A DNA stretch of 41,023 nucleotides from a virus (lineage: Duplodnaviria; Heunggongvirae; Uroviricota; Caudoviricetes), in the IMG/VR virus record IMGVR_UViG_2690316062_000001, positions 1 to 41,023 of that record, one strand, 5' to 3'. Below are positions 34,503 through 40,936 of this stretch, one piece after another. The notes under the pieces were generated by a model. That model had not been told where the DNA came from. It saw only the letters and a list, made by a program, of their open reading frames with translations, and made no database searches. A program made the position numbers and the translations under genes. Numbering within the stretch: the first letter of the stretch is position 1; every line of letters starts with the position of its first letter.

Positions 34503-34824
34503 GGCCTGTCAGTTTCTTAAGATATCCAGACCAACCGCCACCAACTGGATACGAACAGGCCGCCTACAGGCAACACGCAAAGACCCCACTAAACTAAAAT
34601 CTCCTTACCTCACAACACGACAAGCCTGCATTGCGGCGCTTCAGTCTCCGCTGCATACTGTCCAGGTGAGCGCGGGTGATGGCATAACAGAGGAAAGAAA
34701 ATGTCACTCTTCCGCAGAGGTGAAATATGGTACGCCAGTTTCACATTGCCGAACGGTAAAAGATTTAAACAGTCTCTTGGAACAAAGGACAAAAGGCAGG
34801 CGACAGAGCTCCATGACAAGCTAA
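34474..34824 (+). CDS. xis: Excisionase (P22 Xis-like)
   Basis: 116-aa product from [32 protein letters not shown] (HTH); overlaps the int start by about 120 nt. Confidence 0.65.
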
Positions 34825-35864
34825 AGGCTGAAGCATGGCGGGTCAGCAAACTTGGTGAAATACCTGATATGACGTTCGAGGAGGCGTGTATCAGGTGGCT
34901 CGAAGAGAAAGCACATAAAAAATCACTGGACGATGACAAAAGCCGGATCGGATTCTGGCTTCAACATTTCGCAGGAATGCAACTAAGAGACATTACTGAA
35001 TCAAAAATTTATTCAGCAATGCAGAAAATGACGAACCGGCGTCATGAGGAAAACTGGAAACTCAGGGCAGAAGCATGCAGAAAAAAAGGGAAACCAGTTC
35101 CAGAATACACGCCAAAACCAGCGTCCGTTGCAACGAAGGCTACGCATCTTTCATTTATAAAGGCCCTGCTAAGAGCCGCAGAGCGTGAATGGAAAATGCT
35201 GGATAAGGCACCAATTATTAAAGTGCCTCAACCAAAGAATAAACGGATCCGCTGGCTGGAGCCCCATGAAGCACAAAGGCTGATTGATGAATGTCCGGAG
35301 CCATTAAAGTCTGTTGTTGAATTTGCACTGGCAACAGGCTTAAGACGCTCGAACATCATCAACCTTGAATGGCAACAAATAGATATGCAGCGCCGGGTGG
35401 CATGGATAAACCCGGAAGAGAGTAAATCAAACCGCGCAATTGGCGTTGCGCTGAATGATACTGCATGTCGCGTATTGAAAAAACAAATCGGGAATCATCA
35501 CCGTTGGGTATTTGTGTACAAGGAAAGCTGTACCAAACCAGACGGAACGAAAGCGCCAACAGTAAGGAAGATGCGGTATGACGCAAACACAGCCTGGAAA
35601 GCAGCGCTGAGACGGGCTGGTATTGATGATTTCAGATTTCACGACTTGAGACACACCTGGGCAAGTTGGCTGGTTCAAGCCGGAGTCCCGTTGTCAGTGT
35701 TACAGGAAATGGGAGGCTGGGAGTCTATCGAAATGGTTCGTCGATATGCTCACCTTGCACCTAATCACCTTACCGAACACGCACGGCAAATAGACTCGAT
35801 CCTGAACCCATCGGTCCCAAATTCGTCCCAGTCAAAAAATAAGGAAGGTACTAATGATGTGTAA
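34701..35864 (+). CDS. int: Tyrosine integrase (P22/DLP12 Int-like)
   Basis: 387-aa [45 protein letters not shown]...; catalytic-domain motifs ...[10 protein letters not shown]...RYAHL; stop 16 bp from the att core. Confidence 0.9.
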
Positions 35865-35880
35865 CTTATTGATTTAAATG

Positions 35881-35928
35881 GTGCCGATAATAGGAGTCGA
35901 ACCTACGACCTTCGCATTACGAATGCGA
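35881..35928 (-). other. att core: 48-bp copy of the 3' end of tRNA-Thr(CGU) (thrW-type), not a complete tRNA
   Basis: Reverse complement GCATTCGTAATGCGAAGGTCGTAGGTTCGACTCCTATTATCGGCACC corresponds to anticodon loop (CGT), T-arm and acceptor 3' strand of tRNA-Thr; flanking sequence on the 5' side does not continue the tRNA. Confidence 0.7.
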
Positions 35929-36012
35929 AGTTTTTATATTTTAACTGCTTGAACAACCATCAGAAATCACAAATTTATCATTTTAAATCATAATATTAAA
36001 ACAAAAAACCTG

Positions 36013-36110: not shown

Positions 36111-37430
36111 ATGGCGCTTTCAAGACAAAAACTAACCTTCGAACGAATTCGAAGATTTACTTTACCTGAAGGGAAAAACCAAGTTTTCCTTTGGGATACG
36201 GACGTAACAAGCTTGGCATGTCGAGCAACTCGTGGAGCAAAAGCCTTTGTATTCCAAAGCCTGTATGCGGGAAAAACCCTTCGCATGACCATTGGCAACA
36301 TTAACGATTGGAGGATTGATGATGCGAGGGCCGAAGCCAGGCGACTGCAAACATTAATCGATACTGGGATAGATCCGCGTATAGCTAAGGCGGAAAAAAT
36401 TGCTGAAGCGGAATCACAGCAGGCTGAATCTCGTAAAACGAAGGCAACCTTTTCAAGCGCTTGGGAAGATTATCTTGATGAATTGAGAACCGGAATCAGC
36501 GCAAAAACTAAACGCCCCTACTCTGCACGCTACATTGCCGATCACGTTAACTTGTCCAGTCGTGGAGGCGAAAGTAAAAAAAGAGGCCGGGGCCCAACCT
36601 CACCTGGGCCACTGGCTAGCCTGCTCGACCGACCATTATCAGAACTAACACCAGAGAACATTGCCGAATGGCTAAGTACAGAGAGACAAAATCGGCCTAC
36701 CGTCACTGCTCATGCCTACCGTCTGTTGCGTGCATTCATCAAATGGGCTAATTACCAGAAAAAATATCAGGGAATAATCCATGGCGATCTTGCACAAGAT
36801 CATAACGTGAGAAAAATGGTTCCAATATCAGCGAGCAAAGCGGGAGATTGCTTACAAAAAGAACAGCTCAAAAGCTGGTTCAGTGCCGTGCGTAGCCTCA
36901 ATAATCCCATTGCATCAGCCTATCTCCAAGTGCTTTTGCTCACCGGTGCACGGCGTGAAGAAATTTCCTCACTTCGCTGGTCTGACATAGATTTCAAATG
37001 GTCAAGCATGCGAATTAAAGACAAGATCGAAGGCGAGCGAATTATCCCCCTCACTCCCTATGTTTCTGACTTGTTACGCTCACTGATGGAGATCCCCAAT
37101 CGTGGTACAAACGAGGAGAATTGGGTTTTCAGAAGTAACAGCAAAAGTGGCAAAATTATTGAACCGCGTTCAGCACATAATAGAGCATTAACTCGCGCGG
37201 AGTTACCACATATCAGCTTGCACGGATTGCGCCGTAGTTTTGGGACCCTCGCTGAATGGGTCGAAGTACCAACAGGTATTGTTGCGCAGATTATGGGCCA
37301 TAAGCCTAGCGCTCTTGCTGAAAAGCACTATCGCCGCCGTCCATTAGATTTGCTAAGAAAATGGCATGAAAAAGTTGAATTATGGATCTTAGAAGAAGCA
37401 AAAATAAAAAACAACGTTGATAAGCGTTGA
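36111..37430 (+). CDS. Tyrosine integrase of second element (P4-type)
   Basis: 439-aa ORF; C-terminal LHGLRRSFGTLAEW...IMGHKPSALAEKHYRRR catalytic motifs (R, HxxR, Y). Confidence 0.85.
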   Translation: MALSRQKLTFERIRRFTLPEGKNQVFLWDTDVTSLACRATRGAKAFVFQSLYAGKTLRMTIGNINDWRIDDARAEARRLQTLIDTGIDPRIAKAEKIAEAESQQAESRKTKATFSSAWEDYLDELRTGISAKTKRPYSARYIADHVNLSSRGGESKKRGRGPTSPGPLASLLDRPLSELTPENIAEWLSTERQNRPTVTAHAYRLLRAFIKWANYQKKYQGIIHGDLAQDHNVRKMVPISASKAGDCLQKEQLKSWFSAVRSLNNPIASAYLQVLLLTGARREEISSLRWSDIDFKWSSMRIKDKIEGERIIPLTPYVSDLLRSLMEIPNRGTNEENWVFRSNSKSGKIIEPRSAHNRALTRAELPHISLHGLRRSFGTLAEWVEVPTGIVAQIMGHKPSALAEKHYRRRPLDLLRKWHEKVELWILEEAKIKNNVDKR

Positions 37431-37966
37431 TTTTATCAAATATCAACAACTTACATAAAATCACATGTGTTGACAGAAATTTTTTTTCAGTTATCTTTTA
37501 TTACTGCTAACTACATTCACTCACTAAGCAGGAGATTAACTACAGTGACTAACCCAATAACTGTATCAAGAGAAGACCGAAGTGCGGAAATCAGAGCGAG
37601 ATGGGGTTTACATCCGACTAAAAACAAAAGTTCTAATTTTTGGGAAACAACAATTCAGCGTTTTAATAATAGTAGTACTGACCGAATACTACCTCTTTGG
37701 CACCGTGTTTCAAAACTTTTAGTTGCTATTAGGAATGTAGTCAATACTATAACATGCCCTTTTCCACCAAAGGGGAATACTTCCCGCTCACGCCGAAGTT
37801 CAACAACGTCATCAAAAAACTCATCATCATCTTCATCGGATGGTAGTAGTAGCGACCCCGATCCCGATAGAGACCCCATATTCACCCCTTTTCATTTCAT
37901 TCTTTCATCTCTGTTAAAAACAATGATCGTCTTATTTGCCCACATATCAAATGTTGGGGTGATGAA

Positions 37967-38188
37967 ATGAGCGATATCAAACATCAAAAACCCTCTCAGT
38001 CACAACTAATTTCTACCCGCGAGTTAGCTAATATTATTGGCTATGAAGTACAAACTATTCGAGCTTGGCTTTGCAAAGACAAACTGCCTAATGGTTTACC
38101 GCGACCGAAGAAAATTAAAAACCGACATTATTGGTCACGTAAAGACATTGATAGATACCTATTAACCTTCTCAGTATATAGTAACTAA
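37967..38188 (+). CDS. AlpA/excisionase-like HTH DNA-binding protein
   Basis: 73-aa ORF LISTRELANIIGYEVQTIRAWL...; followed by perfect hairpin CCGGCTATTC-taaa-GAATAGCCGG at 38201-38224. Confidence 0.5.
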   Translation: MSDIKHQKPSQSQLISTRELANIIGYEVQTIRAWLCKDKLPNGLPRPKKIKNRHYWSRKDIDRYLLTFSVYSN

Positions 38189-38310
38189 TAGAGGCCTCCC
38201 CCGGCTATTCTAAAGAATAGCCGGGTTAGTTAATACAAACCTTCCATTAACAATGGGGGGAGATTAATACTATTTATCACATCTCACATTAACAAAATTC
38301 AAGGTCACAT

Positions 38311-39075
38311 ATGAAAAAACGCATCACTTTCAGCGTAAACAATAGTTCTACTATTGATGCAATTGACGACTATAGCAATGCAAAAGGATACTCCAGGTCA
38401 GAGGTGATATCATTTTTATTAAACGCCACAGTCCCAGCATTGAATAAAATAACATCGCAATATCATATAGCTCAAACTTTGGAGTCAACATTAGGCTGTA
38501 TTTTTGAAGAGAAGGCCCCGTCAATAGCACGGGGGGAGCCAAAATTAACTTACGAAGAGTTTTTTCATTCCGTCTGGAACACTCACATTCGACACCGGAA
38601 CGAGGTTATCGACCAGAATTTTTATGCACACAAAATATCTCATGATAAGATGGGGAAGAGTGAAAAAAAATTAATTCATGAAAAGCTCACATACATTATA
38701 AAAAGCTTCAATGTAAAAAAAGCAATTTTTATTTACACAGATCGGCGCGTGAACCACAAACATCTAATTGCAGGAGGGTTGTCAAATATCATACTGATAA
38801 AGGAAACAGTTTACGATGGTTGTTTTTTTGATTTGAGCAGCATTGTGATTATGCCAATCTTTGAACTTATTACATTTGGAATTGAAGAGGTATTGAAAAG
38901 AAATAAAATCCACCATAAACAATCATGCTATTGCTGGATACCAATTTATTACACAAATGATCTAGCGGTAATGGTCCCGGTGATTGCCGAAGGCGATACA
39001 CCTCAAAAGGCGATGAAAGGAGGAGATGCCATCATTATTAACCCCTTTAACGGTGAAGTAAACCATACTTTCTGA
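38311..39075 (+). CDS. Ribbon-helix-helix (CopG-like) N-terminus fused to about 200-aa domain of unknown function
   Basis: MKKRITFSVNNSSTIDAIDDYSNAKGYSRSEVISFLL is an RHH-type beta-strand/helix motif; the remainder has no motif I recognise; AT-rich. Confidence 0.5.
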   Translation: MKKRITFSVNNSSTIDAIDDYSNAKGYSRSEVISFLLNATVPALNKITSQYHIAQTLESTLGCIFEEKAPSIARGEPKLTYEEFFHSVWNTHIRHRNEVIDQNFYAHKISHDKMGKSEKKLIHEKLTYIIKSFNVKKAIFIYTDRRVNHKHLIAGGLSNIILIKETVYDGCFFDLSSIVIMPIFELITFGIEEVLKRNKIHHKQSCYCWIPIYYTNDLAVMVPVIAEGDTPQKAMKGGDAIIINPFNGEVNHTF

Positions 39076-39157
39076 TACCAATGTTAAGCATAACCACTTA
39101 GTTGCATACATCTCGACAGTATGGAGTTAGTACCTAATAGCTTGATGAGGGTAAAAG

Positions 39158-39334
39158 ATGCCTACTAACAAAGCAAAATCAAAGAAAATTCTAGGAAGGC
39201 CTGAAGGAAGTAAATATTACCATTTAATTCAGAGTGAGAAGGCTAAGCATTACTCTCAATCCAAGGTGGCAAAGATCTTAGGAATAAGTATTTCCACGGT
39301 AAAAAGACACTGGGATAACGGCATCTTTGGGTGA
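39158..39334 (+). CDS. Small HTH protein (uncertain)
   Basis: 58-codon ORF MPTNKAKSKKILGRPEGSKYYHLIQSEKAKHYSQSKVAKILGISISTVKRHWDNGIFG; below the ORF-track cutoff. Confidence 0.35.
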   Translation: MPTNKAKSKKILGRPEGSKYYHLIQSEKAKHYSQSKVAKILGISISTVKRHWDNGIFG

Positions 39335-39537
39335 TTATAATTGCAGAGTTGCTTTTTAAGTATTTTACTGCATGGGTAATGGGTTGATAACAAGTTTTAT
39401 TGTTGGAAAGGTATTATATAACAGTCATTACTATTAATAGTTAATTAATATAAATAACCACAGACATTCATCTATGTCTTATCATATTACTATATACGGC
39501 TTTAGAAAACCGTAGAACTAACTACAAGGGTATACAT

Positions 39538-40158
39538 ATGGAATTATATCATGGTTCCCATGGTGAGCATGTACTCGCCTATAGAAAGCATATTGAGCGA
39601 GTCGTTAATGATGCTGTCAGTGAATTCCCTAGAACAATGGCATTACGTGTTGATGCCCATTACCCCCCTATTTTAGATAGAGGTGATACGGTTTGCTGCT
39701 TTCCTAATCTAGAGCCTGGTGCCATATCCCGTTTCCGTAATGCATTAAATGCCATGTTGGAGGCCAATGAGAGAGCCAGAGCCGCCAACGGTAAAAGAAT
39801 ATATTCAAATCGTGTTCGTCATGTTTGGGTAAGGGAGTTTTCCGAAGAGGGGAAATGTCATTTTCATCTTGGTCTTTTTTTTAACAAAGATGCTTATTAC
39901 CATTTAGGTGATTATGAGGCTGAAAGCAATTTACGGATGATGATTGTAAGGGCATGGTACAGTGCCCTGGGGTTGGAACTGGATGATTATCCGGGATTAG
40001 TTCACTACCCTGAAAATTGTCGTTATATATTAGACGTCAATGATTTTAACTTTGAAGGAGAATACAATAAATTACTGAATCGCTTCGACTACCTAGCTAA
40101 ACTCGATACAAAAGCATATGGAGATGGCGACCGTAGCTTCGGCTGCAGTCGCGGTTAA
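39538..40158 (+). CDS. Inovirus Gp2-family protein (YagK/YfjJ-like)
   Basis: 206-aa ORF MELYHGSHGEHVLAYRKHIERVVNDAVSEF..., resembles recalled CP4-type island proteins. Confidence 0.6.
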   Translation: MELYHGSHGEHVLAYRKHIERVVNDAVSEFPRTMALRVDAHYPPILDRGDTVCCFPNLEPGAISRFRNALNAMLEANERARAANGKRIYSNRVRHVWVREFSEEGKCHFHLGLFFNKDAYYHLGDYEAESNLRMMIVRAWYSALGLELDDYPGLVHYPENCRYILDVNDFNFEGEYNKLLNRFDYLAKLDTKAYGDGDRSFGCSRG

Positions 40159-40213: not shown

Positions 40214-40936
40214 TCAAGACGATGGTGAGCGATAAAGTATTGTTTTCAAGTAATCATCTGTTGCAGTAAACTCAGGGAGTTGGCCACTCATGGCCTGTGT
40301 TAGTGGAATAATCTTTGTCCTGACTCCCATCCCCCTGAAATCAACGTAACCATAATCACGTAAGACTTCCATAATAATCGTATTACGTGGTGAACGCTGA
40401 CCTGCAACCATCTTTTCAACCGACATCGAATTATTCAGTGCCCCTGGGCTAATAACTTCAAATCGATTGCTATACAAGCCAATCTCTATCTCAACAAAGC
40501 GTGTCCAGTCACGATGAGCCAGTGCATTTACAACAGTTTCGCGAATAGCTTCCAGTGGATAGTACCAGGTTGTTTCACGACGTAGATGCGTATCGGGTAG
40601 AGGAGCCTCTGAAGTGATAAAGGGCATGATAGTCGACATCAAACGCTCAATCAATCCACCATCGATCAAAGCCTTTCCGGCTTCCTCAGTATCAAAACGC
40701 CCAACCATTGGACCATCCAGAATATCATCGAGTAACGGTTGGTACTCCTTATCCTCGCTGGCAAACGCAAAGACTCGGATACCTGATTGACGTAAATACT
40801 GGCGTGGATGTTTACCGAAGAGCACCAACCCGGCAATTGTACAACAGACATTTTCACCCGCTTGTGTCAGAAAACTTAATCCTAACAACCGTTGTTGCCA
40901 TTGTTCCTGAGTCTCAGGAATATCAGGATCACGCAA
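40214..40936 (-). CDS. AlbA_2 / RecG-C-terminal-like putative DNA-binding regulator (5' end unresolved at window edge)
   Basis: 240 codons from a TTG; motif VVNALAHRDW; in-frame TGA at 41012-41014 and an ATG in another frame at 41019 suggest a frameshift or a start outside the window. Confidence 0.5.
   Translation of the reverse strand: MRDPDIPETQEQWQQRLLGLSFLTQAGENVCCTIAGLVLFGKHPRQYLRQSGIRVFAFASEDKEYQPLLDDILDGPMVGRFDTEEAGKALIDGGLIERLMSTIMPFITSEAPLPDTHLRRETTWYYPLEAIRETVVNALAHRDWTRFVEIEIGLYSNRFEVISPGALNNSMSVEKMVAGQRSPRNTIIMEVLRDYGYVDFRGMGVRTKIIPLTQAMSGQLPEFTATDDYLKTILYRSPSS

What the first reader, a model, noticed from the sequence alone, without database searches (positions are those of the whole stretch)
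38311..39334. RHH-fusion protein plus small HTH protein in the second island
The 254-aa protein starts with a clear ribbon-helix-helix motif (KKRITFSV...SRSEVISFLL) but continues for about 200 residues that match no domain I recognise. It is followed by a 58-aa HTH-type ORF and an AT-rich intergenic region. RHH domains are classic antitoxin or repressor modules, and P4/CP4-type islands are known accessory-gene hotspots, so this could be another uncharacterised regulatory or defence module.
Basis: partly seen in the sequence, partly recalled or inferred. Interest (0 to 1): 0.5.

Follow-up and report, generated by a model that had tools for sequence, protein, structure and literature searches.

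The report
YagM/YagL backbone genes of CP4-6-type island
The two genes are real, but they are divergent copies of the uncharacterised E. coli K-12 genes yagM and yagL (the latter cut down to its DNA-binding tip), which belong to the conserved backbone of a CP4-6-type genomic island and look like DNA-binding regulators, not a new defence or toxin-antitoxin cargo module.

Summary
Both ORFs exist as described: 254 aa at 38311-39075 and 58 aa at 39158-39334, both on the + strand.

**The 254-aa protein** is a homologue of E. coli K-12 YagM (32% identity, E 2e-44; Pfam PF27701 'UCP007319').
- The roughly 175-residue C-terminal α/β domain, modelled at pLDDT above 90, matches no solved fold.
- Across the family this domain has no conserved catalytic residues.

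**The 58-aa protein** is the C-terminal HTH of the pseudo-resolvase YagL. The resolvase-like domain has been cleanly deleted. The short form is intact and under purifying selection in several genera.

**Context.** The neighbourhood reproduces CP4-6 exactly: intF-like integrase (89% identity), yagN, ykgV (AlpA-like), yagM, yagL and yagK (an HUH Rep-like protein).
- The order yagM-yagL-yagK holds in all 23 related loci long enough to show it, while the cargo varies (sucrose genes, restriction-modification, Gabija).
- These are therefore backbone genes, not cargo.

**Likely role (inferred).** A DNA-binding regulatory pair controlling the yagK promoter, whose spacer is nearly invariant, and so controlling island replication or mobilisation.

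**Verdict.** A new member of a known but uncharacterised family, of modest interest.

The parts
38311..39075 (+). yagM-like gene, 254 aa. Residues 1-66 form an RHH plus a long helix (nt 38311-38508). Residues 68-75 are a low-confidence linker. Residues 81-254 form an orphan α/β domain (nt 38551-39072).
39158..39334 (+). Truncated yagL, 58 aa. It is the HTH_7-type DNA-binding domain of a resolvase-derived protein; the roughly 130-aa resolvase-like domain is deleted. A GAGG Shine-Dalgarno sequence lies 8 nt upstream.
   Evidence: 58% identity to YagL residues 183-232. Alignments A2 and A7 place it on the C-terminus. The ORF is intact in E. coli, Kluyvera, Scandinavium, Serratia and Buttiauxella copies, with dN/dS 0.19-0.65.
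39338..39353 (+). Conserved block TAATTGCAGAGTTGCT immediately after the stop codon of the 58-aa gene.
   Evidence: The exceptions are L022, L026 and the truncated L005.
39395..39422 (+). Probable yagK promoter: -35 TTTTAT, a 16-nt near-invariant spacer TGTTGGAAAGGTATTA, and -10 TATAAC. The spacer is a candidate operator.
   Evidence: The block TGTWGG-N4-6-GTATTATA is conserved across genera. In K-12 the equivalent sequence TTTAGA-16-TATAAT was mapped by genomic SELEX as a constitutive sigma-70 promoter for yagK, with H-NS bound (PMC3946193).
39495..39514 (+). Inverted repeat TACGG-N10-CCGTA in the presumed yagK 5' leader, about 25 nt before the yagK ATG.
   Evidence: The arms are nearly invariant in 10 loci. 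With no covariation it cannot be assigned to RNA or DNA function.
38200..38225 (+). Perfect 12-nt palindrome CCCGGCTATTCT-AA-AGAATAGCCGGG between ykgV and yagM. It is either a terminator-like hairpin or a symmetric operator.
   Evidence: Found by the repeat finder. A compensatory G-C to A-T change occurs in the related clade.
38275..38288 (+). Tandem heptads TATCACA TCTCACA just upstream of the yagM ribosome-binding site. Speculative RHH operator.
   Evidence: The region TTTATCACAT.T.ACATTAAC is conserved in the clade. The resemblance to heptad operators of omega-type RHH proteins is from memory and untested.
39538..40158 (+). yagK-like gene, 206 aa, an HUH Rep-like protein. Downstream partner of the module.
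   Evidence: PF11726 at E 1.5e-51 and REP_ORF2-G2P at E 2e-5. 55% identity to YagK. Invariant H[FY]H and YLxK motifs.
37967..38188 (+). ykgV-like AlpA/HTH_17 protein, 73 aa. Probable excision or activator factor.
   Evidence: PF12728 at 28 bits. 66% identity to YkgV.
37467..37970 (+). yagN-like ORF, 167 aa, with a Ser/Asp-rich tract.
   Evidence: 30% identity and E 2e-11 to YagN. No Pfam family.
36111..37430 (+). IntF-type tyrosine integrase of the island.
   Evidence: Arm-DNA-bind_3 plus Phage_integrase domains. 89% identity to K-12 IntF.
35882..35954 (-). tRNA-Thr(CGU)-like fragment. Presumed att-site copy of the island, comparable to the pseudo-tRNA next to intF in K-12.
   Evidence: Rfam tRNA model at 36.3 bits, but the acceptor and D arms are unpaired. 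ARAGORN finds no tRNA. The flank is conserved next to int in K-12 and other loci.

Best explanation
The two ORFs are the yagM and yagL genes of a CP4-6 (IntF, thrW-type) integrative island. They belong to its conserved maintenance backbone (int - yagN - ykgV/alpA - yagM - yagL - yagK), not to its cargo.

**YagM-like protein.** It is a ribbon-helix-helix DNA-binding protein. Its long second helix leads into a family-specific α/β domain with no catalytic signature. That domain most likely serves oligomerisation or partner/signal binding.

**58-aa protein.** It is the HTH DNA-binding domain of a resolvase-derived protein. The parent had already lost its catalytic residues in all island copies. 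In this clade the whole catalytic domain is gone, and only DNA binding has been kept under selection.

**Proposed mechanism (inferred, not shown).** The two proteins bind operators in the short intergenic regions. One lies upstream of yagM. The other is the nearly invariant promoter spacer and leader upstream of yagK. Through these sites they set expression of the HUH Rep-like YagK, and so control replication or mobilisation of the excised island. This would resemble CopG repressing RepB on rolling-circle plasmids.

**Origin.** The pairing descends from an RHH-protein plus serine-resolvase cassette still found on small plasmids.

**Confidence split.** About 0.9 for identity and backbone status. 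About 0.4 for the regulatory mechanism.
For: **Shown.**
- Gene-by-gene homology to K-12 intF-yagN-ykgV-yagM-yagL-yagK.
- The order yagM-yagL-yagK holds in all 23 loci long enough to show it, from Escherichia, Salmonella, Pectobacterium, Providencia, Proteus, Erwinia, Pantoea, Serratia, Kluyvera and others. Cargo differs among them.
- Across the wide family the only invariant or near-invariant residues are S28/S30 (RHH turn), P42, E118, R145, F173, D174 and G190. This is not an enzyme-like constellation.
- The 58-aa ORF equals the YagL C-terminus. Island YagL proteins lack a full R8/S10/R68/R71 set, whereas the plasmid relatives keep it.
- Both genes are under purifying selection.
- A circular 4.1-kb Providencia plasmid carries a YagM-like gene directly upstream of a bona fide resolvase with the same HTH.
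- The promoter block with an invariant spacer occurs once per locus in 21 of the YagL-bearing loci. It is absent from the YagL-less loci.
- The K-12 equivalent is an experimentally mapped sigma-70 promoter for yagK (PMC3946193).
- YagK has invariant HUH-like and YxxK motifs.
- Distant YagM-like genes sit divergently from yagK-like plus alpA genes. A perfect 10-nt inverted repeat lies at their start.
Against: - No DNA-binding, regulatory or phenotypic data exist for any family member. YagM is on the E. coli y-ome list.
- RHH sequence matches are all below curated thresholds.
- The operator assignments are guesses. The conserved spacer could be bound by H-NS, by YagK itself or by a host factor.
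- The absence of the spacer block from YagL-less loci may simply reflect their divergence.
- Some copies are decaying: IS1 truncation in L012, a frameshift in L024, and a frameshifted yagK in L013. The module is therefore dispensable to the host.
- The monomer model cannot show the RHH beta-ribbon.
Confidence: 0.5

Rival explanations
1. Accessory factor of the YagK HUH nuclease. YagM, like the RHH proteins TraY, NikA, TraM or MobC of relaxosomes, would bind next to a nick site in the yagL-yagK intergenic region. It would help YagK initiate rolling-circle replication or conjugative mobilisation of the excised island, with little role in transcription.
For: - yagM and yagK are linked in every island locus, in series or divergently.
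- YagK has HUH and YxxK motifs.
- Conserved non-coding blocks and an inverted repeat lie upstream of yagK.
Against: - The plasmid copies of YagM-like genes (L025, L030, L031) have no YagK.
- The conserved block coincides with a mapped promoter.
- No nick-site-like stem-loop with covariation was found.
Confidence: 0.2
2. Recombination-site regulator or stability cassette. YagM is the partner of the resolvase-type protein, as on the small plasmids. It would serve as architectural factor or repressor at a res-like site for multimer resolution or inversion. The island copies would be relics of that system that now only bind DNA.
For: - The YagM-like gene lies 133 bp upstream of an intact serine resolvase on the circular plasmid p21OH12SH02B-3.
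- A second plasmid contig carries a distant YagM-like gene and the same resolvase.
- YagL always follows YagM in the CP4-6-type (YagL-bearing) island loci.
Against: - Island YagL proteins are catalytically degenerate, and here the domain is deleted, yet YagM stays under strong purifying selection.
- Some YagM-like genes have no resolvase-type neighbour at all.
Confidence: 0.15
3. Toxin-antitoxin or anti-phage defence module. The RHH would act as an antitoxin or repressor, and the unknown C-terminal domain (or the neighbouring gene) would act as effector.
For: - The best structural matches of the N-terminus are ParD/CopG-type antitoxins.
- The islands carry defence cargo elsewhere.
- In K-12 strong Rho terminators precede yagM and yagL, in a region whose genes are described as toxic when derepressed (PMC9160355).
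Against: - PADLOC gives no hit for the 254-aa protein and only a weak generic HTH match for the 58-aa ORF.
- There is no toxin-family neighbour.
- The C-terminal domain lacks conserved catalytic residues.
- The position is a fixed backbone slot, not the variable cargo slot.
- No homologue exists in 50,697 phage records.
Confidence: 0.07
4. Non-functional relics of a decaying cryptic element. On this view the truncated yagL in particular is a pseudogene fragment that happens to keep an ORF.
For: - The resolvase domain is deleted.
- PGAP does not annotate the 58-aa ORF in E. coli genomes.
- Disrupted copies of yagM and yagK exist.
- The window allele is rare, in 14 of 5426 E. coli genomes.
Against: - The ORF is intact, with start codon and Shine-Dalgarno sequence, in six copies diverged to dS of about 0.3.
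- Its HTH half is nearly invariant and dN/dS is well below 1.
- yagM dN/dS is 0.10-0.20.
Confidence: 0.08

Closest known systems
E. coli K-12 YagM (b0279; Pfam PF27701 'UCP007319') in cryptic prophage CP4-6
   Same: - Full-length homology: 32% identity over 248 residues, E 2e-44.
- Same slot between ykgV and yagL.
- Same IntF-type integrase and thrW-derived att fragment.
- Function is equally unknown.
   Different: - The allele is highly diverged although the integrase is 89% identical, so the backbone is mosaic.
- It lacks the 32-residue N-terminal extension annotated in K-12.
- It is carried by an island whose relatives hold a sucrose operon instead of K-12's cargo.
E. coli K-12 YagL ('resolvase-like catalytic domain-containing protein') and serine resolvases (PF00239 + HTH_7)
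   Same: - The 58-aa protein aligns to the C-terminal HTH of YagL (58% identity) and of an intact plasmid resolvase (56%).
- The recognition-helix motif S-T-V-K-R-x-W is invariant.
   Different: - The whole catalytic domain is missing here.
- Even full-length island YagL proteins lack a complete R8/S10/R68/R71 set.
- It is therefore a DNA-binding remnant, not a recombinase.
CopG (pMV158) and ParD-type RHH repressors/antitoxins
   Same: - N-terminal beta-alpha-alpha signature with the G/x-S-R/K-S turn.
- Like CopG, the protein sits in a module with an HUH Rep-like gene. The CopG-RepB arrangement is from established knowledge of pMV158.
   Different: - CopG is 45 aa and ParD is about 80 aa. This protein adds a 175-residue orphan domain.
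- It has no toxin partner.
- Sequence scores are below family thresholds.
NikR-type architecture (RHH + C-terminal ferredoxin-like regulatory/tetramerisation domain)
   Same: - General layout: an N-terminal RHH followed by an α/β domain that could mediate oligomerisation or ligand sensing.
- NikR C-domains and ribosomal protein S6-like folds appear among the very weak fold hits.
   Different: - The hits are insignificant (Foldseek E of about 5, probability 0.08).
- There are no metal-binding residues.
- This is an analogy only.

Membership tests
YagM family (Pfam PF27701 / UCP007319) | Full-length sequence similarity to YagM and to family members | tested here: met
   BLASTP against K-12 YagM gives E 2e-44 and 32% identity over 248 aa. 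There are 22 clusters with E from 1e-31 to 1e-157, all carrying precomputed PF27701. The family HMM finds only 51 representatives among 1.84 billion proteins. PF27701 itself is not in the local Pfam copy, so the model score was not computed.
YagM family (Pfam PF27701 / UCP007319) | Position in the backbone between an AlpA/YkgV-like gene and a YagL-type gene, followed by YagK | tested here: met
   This order holds in the window and in all 23 loci long enough to show it.
Ribbon-helix-helix (CopG/Arc/MetJ) superfamily | Sequence match to RHH family models | tested here: inconclusive
   CopG scores E 0.16 with an end-to-end alignment of residues 1-40. DUF6364 scores 18.1 bits against a cut-off of 27.3. 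aCcr1 scores E 0.003. All are sub-threshold.
Ribbon-helix-helix (CopG/Arc/MetJ) superfamily | Beta-strand, helix A, turn, helix B fold | tested here: met
Ribbon-helix-helix (CopG/Arc/MetJ) superfamily | Dimerisation through the antiparallel beta-ribbon and sequence-specific DNA binding | not testable with these tools
   Only monomer prediction is available, and there is no binding assay.
Type II toxin-antitoxin (RHH antitoxin) | Adjacent co-transcribed toxin gene of a known toxin family | tested here: not met
   The neighbours are an AlpA-like HTH gene upstream and the HTH remnant and YagK downstream. There are no toxin families in Pfam, NCBIfam or PADLOC.
Serine resolvase/invertase (PF00239 + HTH_7), for the 58-aa ORF | N-terminal catalytic domain with the nucleophile Ser10 and Arg8/Arg68/Arg71 | tested here: not met
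   The domain is absent from the window protein. Only 83 bp separate it from the yagM stop codon. In full-length island YagL proteins the residue set is incomplete, whereas it is intact in the plasmid resolvases of L025 and L030.
Serine resolvase/invertase (PF00239 + HTH_7), for the 58-aa ORF | C-terminal HTH DNA-binding domain | tested here: met
   56-58% identity to the HTH of an intact resolvase and of YagL. Pfam HTH_7 scores 19.1 bits against a cut-off of 23.8.
Known anti-phage defence systems (PADLOC) | Match to a defence-system protein model | tested here: not met
   There are 0 families for the 254-aa protein. The 58-aa ORF gives only a weak generic HTH match (mad1, E 0.0029).
CP4-6 / IntF-type integrative island | IntF-type integrase next to a thrW-derived tRNA fragment, followed by yagN-ykgV-yagM-yagL-yagK | tested here: met
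   The integrase is 89% identical to IntF. A tRNA-Thr(CGU)-like fragment lies at 35882-35954. Gene-by-gene homology was established.
HUH endonuclease (Rep/relaxase), for the neighbour YagK used in the model | HUH metal-binding motif and catalytic Tyr motif (YxxK) | tested here: inconclusive
   H[FY]H-x2-L-x-FN and Y-L-x-K are invariant in 13 sequences. Pfam REP_ORF2-G2P scores 25.2 bits against a cut-off of 27.8. No activity or structure test was done.

The most novel reading that the evidence does not exclude
YagM-type proteins may be the master regulators of a widespread family of thrW/IntF-type islands. In that case the 'cryptic prophage' CP4-6 would be a decayed member of a family of replicative or mobilisable elements.

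- The RHH would repress the alpA/yagK (excision plus HUH Rep) genes.
- The orphan-fold C-terminal domain would be a sensor that releases repression on binding a signal, for example a helper-phage or plasmid protein. This would be analogous to the Stl repressors of SaPIs.
- The HTH-only YagL would be a second, co-evolved operator-binding subunit.
Probability: 0.12. Interest if true: 0.65.

Novelty: new member of a known kind. Interest (0 to 1): 0.3.

Why it matters
- It assigns two anonymous ORFs to a catalogued but functionally blank family (E. coli y-ome genes yagM and yagL).
- It shows that this family is a conserved backbone component of islands that ferry defence and metabolic cargo among Enterobacterales.
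- Knowing which genes are backbone and which are cargo sharpens defence-island mining.
- The analysis gives the first concrete, testable hypotheses for YagM, YagL and YagK: an RHH regulator with an orphan domain, a pseudo-resolvase reduced to its HTH, an HUH Rep-like partner, and a promoter with an invariant spacer.
- It is not a new type of system, and no defence function is indicated.

Tried and rejected
1. **Domain libraries for the 254-aa protein.** Pfam, NCBIfam, PADLOC and PHROGs gave only sub-threshold RHH-like hits and a spurious MxiM match.
2. **PDB sequence searches.** The single-sequence search gave only MxiM at E 0.17, rejected as noise. The profile search gave CopG at E 0.16.
4. 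**Exhaustive HMM search of 1.84 billion representatives.** This found no link to any other family, only 51 family members and fragments.
5. **Phage records.** No homologue.
6. **Literature.** YagM, YagK, YfjJ, PF27701 and PF11726 appear only as hits in high-throughput screens (persister formation, oxidant resistance, Rho terminators), with no functional study.
7. **Catalytic-motif idea (YTDR, IPIYHTND).** Rejected, because these motifs are not conserved in distant family members.
8. **Direct repeat CATTAACAA x2 upstream of the gene.** Not conserved in the closest clade, so not proposed as an operator.
9. **CRESS-like nonanucleotide or stem-loop reading of GGTATTATA.** Rejected, because there is no conserved stem and the block matches a mapped promoter.
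10. **Rfam scan of the region and of the small plasmid.** No RNA family apart from the tRNA fragment.
11. **Sigma-70 and terminator consensus scan.** Counts did not exceed shuffled controls.
12. **CP101363.1, listed as a 'plasmid'.** It is a linear 11.7-kb record with chromosomal genes, so it was not used as plasmid evidence.
Full report
**Observation.** The ORF scan confirms a 254-aa ORF at 38311..39075 (+) and a 58-aa ORF at 39158..39334 (+). A 203-bp spacer of 29-32% G+C follows them. Both are genuine genes.
- The 254-aa protein has 22 homologous clusters in a 5.8-billion-protein database.
- Both ORFs are intact in copies from E. coli, Kluyvera, Scandinavium, Serratia grimesii and Buttiauxella.
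- Pairwise dN/dS is 0.10-0.20 for the long gene and 0.19-0.65 for the short one, whose HTH half is almost invariant.

**What the locus is.** The neighbours gave the key.
- Upstream lie a P4-type integrase (36111-37430), a 167-aa ORF and an AlpA/HTH_17 protein.
- Downstream lies a YagK/YfjJ ('inovirus Gp2 family') protein.
- The K-12 record shows the same series in cryptic prophage CP4-6: intF-yagN-ykgV-yagM-yagL-yagK.

Pairwise comparison with K-12:

| Window gene | K-12 gene | Identity |
|---|---|---|
| integrase | IntF | 89% |
| 73-aa protein | YkgV | 66% |
| 167-aa ORF | YagN | 30% (E 2e-11) |
| 254-aa protein | YagM | 32% over 248 residues (E 2e-44) |
| 58-aa protein | YagL, last 50 residues | 58% |
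| 206-aa protein | YagK | 55% |

- A tRNA-Thr(CGU)-like 3' fragment at 35882-35954 (Rfam 36.3 bits, acceptor and D arms unpaired, missed by ARAGORN) lies just before the integrase. Its flank is conserved in K-12, so it is the att copy.
- The 'second island' is therefore a CP4-6/IntF-type island with a strongly diverged allele of the yagN-yagM-yagL segment.
- The homologues of the 254-aa protein all carry the precomputed Pfam family PF27701 'UCP007319', which is too recent for the local Pfam copy.

**Backbone, not cargo.**
- tblastn of the reference proteins against all loci fetched shows the order yagM-yagL-yagK in every one of the 23 loci long enough to show it. These come from Escherichia, Salmonella, Pectobacterium, Providencia, Proteus, Erwinia, Winslowiella, Pantoea, Enterobacter, Serratia, Kluyvera, Scandinavium and Buttiauxella.
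- What follows yagK varies: a sucrose (scr) operon in the closest E. coli relatives, type I restriction-modification, and Gabija-like OLD/UvrD genes among others.
- PADLOC has no model matching the 254-aa protein, and no phage record encodes a homologue.
- The window allele is rare in E. coli (14 of 5426 complete genomes). The K-12 allele is in 358.

**The 254-aa protein.**
- A family profile searched against PDB sequences gives CopG as its best hit. CopG is the prototype RHH repressor. The alignment runs end to end over residues 1-40: MKKRLTITL..LSKSAMIS against MKKRITFSV..YSRSEVIS. The E value of 0.16 is weak.
- Pfam DUF6364 and NCBIfam aCcr1 give similar sub-threshold signals.
- Two AlphaFold models were made, the second from a 42-sequence alignment. 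It has mean pLDDT 87.5, and above 90 through most of the C-terminal domain.
- Foldseek against the PDB finds nothing with E below 1.
- An exhaustive HMM search of 1.84 billion representatives finds only 51 proteins or fragments, all family members.
- In an alignment that includes the most distant members, the only invariant or near-invariant positions are S28/S30 (the RHH turn), P42, E118, R145, F173, D174 and G190. Locally conserved motifs such as YTDR or IPIYHTND dissolve.
- The C-terminal domain is therefore an orphan α/β domain without an enzyme-like signature.
Neither is there any sign of a toxin or effector.

**The 58-aa protein.**
- Aligned with full-length YagL-type proteins (184-232 aa), it covers only their C-terminal HTH. 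The roughly 130-residue resolvase-like domain is absent, and only 83 bp separate it from the yagM stop codon.
- The full-length island proteins match Pfam Resolvase just below threshold.
- Aligned with intact plasmid resolvases, they lack one or more of R8, S10, R68 and R71.
- The island lineage thus carries a pseudo-resolvase. The clade to which the window belongs has reduced it to the DNA-binding domain, with its own GAGG ribosome-binding site, and has kept that under purifying selection.
- PGAP does not annotate this ORF in the E. coli genomes examined.

**Where the pair comes from.**
- tblastn against plasmids found a circular 4,136-bp Providencia plasmid. On it a YagM-like gene (269 aa) sits 133 bp upstream of a bona fide serine resolvase (PF00239, E 1e-33). 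The HTH of that resolvase is 56% identical to the window's 58-aa protein.
- A Rep3-plasmid contig carries a distant YagM-like gene near an 89%-identical resolvase and a BrnTA pair.
- More distant chromosomal YagM-like genes lack YagL. They are transcribed divergently from a yagK-like plus alpA pair, with a perfect 10-nt inverted repeat ending 3 nt before their start codon.
- The recurrent partners are thus a resolvase-type HTH protein and the YagK protein.

**Non-coding elements.** The yagL-yagK spacer contains blocks conserved across genera whose YagM proteins are only 35-50% identical.
- TAATTGCAGAG... lies directly after the yagL stop codon.
- A block TGTWGG-N4-6-GTATTATA lies further on.
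- An inverted repeat TACGG-N-CCGTA lies about 25 nt before the yagK ATG.
- The first two blocks occur once each in nearly every YagL-bearing locus and nowhere else in the 395 kb held. They are absent from the YagL-less loci.
- In K-12 this very sequence (TTTAGA-16-TATAAT) was mapped by genomic SELEX as a constitutive sigma-70 promoter for yagK, with H-NS bound (PMC3946193).
- The window equivalent is -35 at 39395-39400, spacer 39401-39416 and -10 at 39417-39422.
- A near-invariant promoter spacer suggests an overlapping operator.
- The recognition helix of the YagL HTH (S-T-V-K-R-x-W) is likewise invariant. That makes the 58-aa protein the most economical candidate to bind there. This is inference.
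- YagK itself has invariant H[FY]H and YLxK motifs and a near-threshold match to REP_ORF2-G2P. This is consistent with an HUH Rep-like nuclease.

**Mechanism proposed.**
- Shown: homology, synteny, RHH fold, loss of resolvase catalysis, selection, and conserved promoter blocks.
- Inferred: YagM (as an RHH dimer or higher oligomer through its C-domain) and the HTH-only YagL are DNA-binding regulators of the island backbone. They would set expression of yagK, and probably of themselves. This is comparable to CopG controlling RepB on pMV158 (established knowledge).
- Rivals:
  - YagM acts as an accessory factor of YagK at an origin or oriT.
  - YagM acts as a partner of the resolvase at a res-like site.
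  - The pair is a toxin-antitoxin or defence module.
  - The genes are functionless relics.
- The last two fit the data poorly, for the reasons given under each rival.

**Literature.** YagM, YagL and YagK are on the list of uncharacterised K-12 genes (PMC11551758).
- yagM appears only in screens: rifampicin-induced persistence (PMC5845583) and oxidant resistance on overexpression (PMC8228696).
- It also appears downstream of very strong Rho-dependent terminators (PMC9160355).

**Verdict.** The structural reading (an RHH fused to an unknown domain, plus a small HTH protein) is right. The functional guess (a defence or accessory module) is not supported. This is a new, diverged member of a known, uncharacterised family in a known kind of island. 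Interest is modest. It rests on the orphan domain, the resolvase-to-HTH reduction, and the testable link to an HUH Rep-like gene.

Noticed in passing
window 35882-35954 (-), with 34701-35864 and 36111-37430: A tRNA-Thr(CGU)-like 3' fragment (Rfam 36.3 bits; missed by ARAGORN) lies between the integrase of a lambdoid prophage and the island integrase. The prophage carries RecT, YqaJ, a cI-like repressor and O/P replication genes in roughly 25-35 kb. The two elements therefore sit in tandem at one thrW-type att site. The same junction occurs in E. coli ECONIH4 and CAVP776.
   Followed up: partly
window 39338-39353, 39395-39422, 39495-39514: Three non-coding blocks in the yagL-yagK spacer are conserved across genera. 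The middle one equals the mapped K-12 yagK promoter, with an almost invariant 16-nt spacer. The last is an invariant inverted repeat in the leader.
   Followed up: partly
L025 (NZ_CP114799.1, whole 4136-bp circular plasmid): This small Providencia plasmid carries only a YagM-like gene, an intact serine resolvase and a 381-aa lipoprotein-like ORF. It has no recognisable Rep protein and no Rfam RNAI-type match, so how it replicates is unexplained.
   Followed up: partly
L028/L029 5968-5997: A perfect 10-nt inverted repeat TGTTATGCAT-N10-ATGCATAACA ends 3 nt before the ATG of a distant YagM-like gene. That gene is divergent from yagK-like plus alpA. L027 has an imperfect version. This is a candidate autoregulatory operator.
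   Followed up: no
window 36111-40158 versus L010 (K-12): The backbone is mosaic. The integrase is 89% identical to IntF. By contrast YkgV is 66%, YagK 55%, YagM 32% and YagN 30% identical. The internal module has therefore been exchanged or has diverged far faster than the integrase.
   Followed up: partly
window 40214-40936 (-): An ORF with a HATPase_c_4 domain ('ATP-binding protein' in RefSeq) matches PADLOC models of pAgo-associated SIR2/PNTD proteins (E 2e-15). It is the first cargo gene after yagK. The window's similarity to its E. coli relatives stops at about 40786.
   Followed up: no
L012 4000-4374; L024 6001-6758; L013 5499-6118: Some copies of the module are decaying. An IS1 insertion leaves only the C-terminal 124 residues of YagM in E. 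coli PCP06171. The Proteus columbae yagM and one E. coli yagK are frameshifted.
   Followed up: partly
L001, L011, L013 (E. coli RefSeq records): PGAP leaves the 58-aa HTH ORF unannotated in these genomes. Locus-tag numbering skips one number at that position in L011 and L013, although the ORF is intact.
   Followed up: no
window 38200-38225: The perfect palindrome after ykgV shows a compensatory G-C to A-T change in the related clade. This speaks for a selected hairpin or a symmetric binding site.
   Followed up: partly
window 37467-37970: The YagN-like ORF has a Ser/Asp-rich low-complexity tract (SSTTSSKNSSSSSSDGSSSDPDPD), also present in K-12 YagN. Its stop codon overlaps the ykgV-like start (ATGA). 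It matches no family.
   Followed up: no
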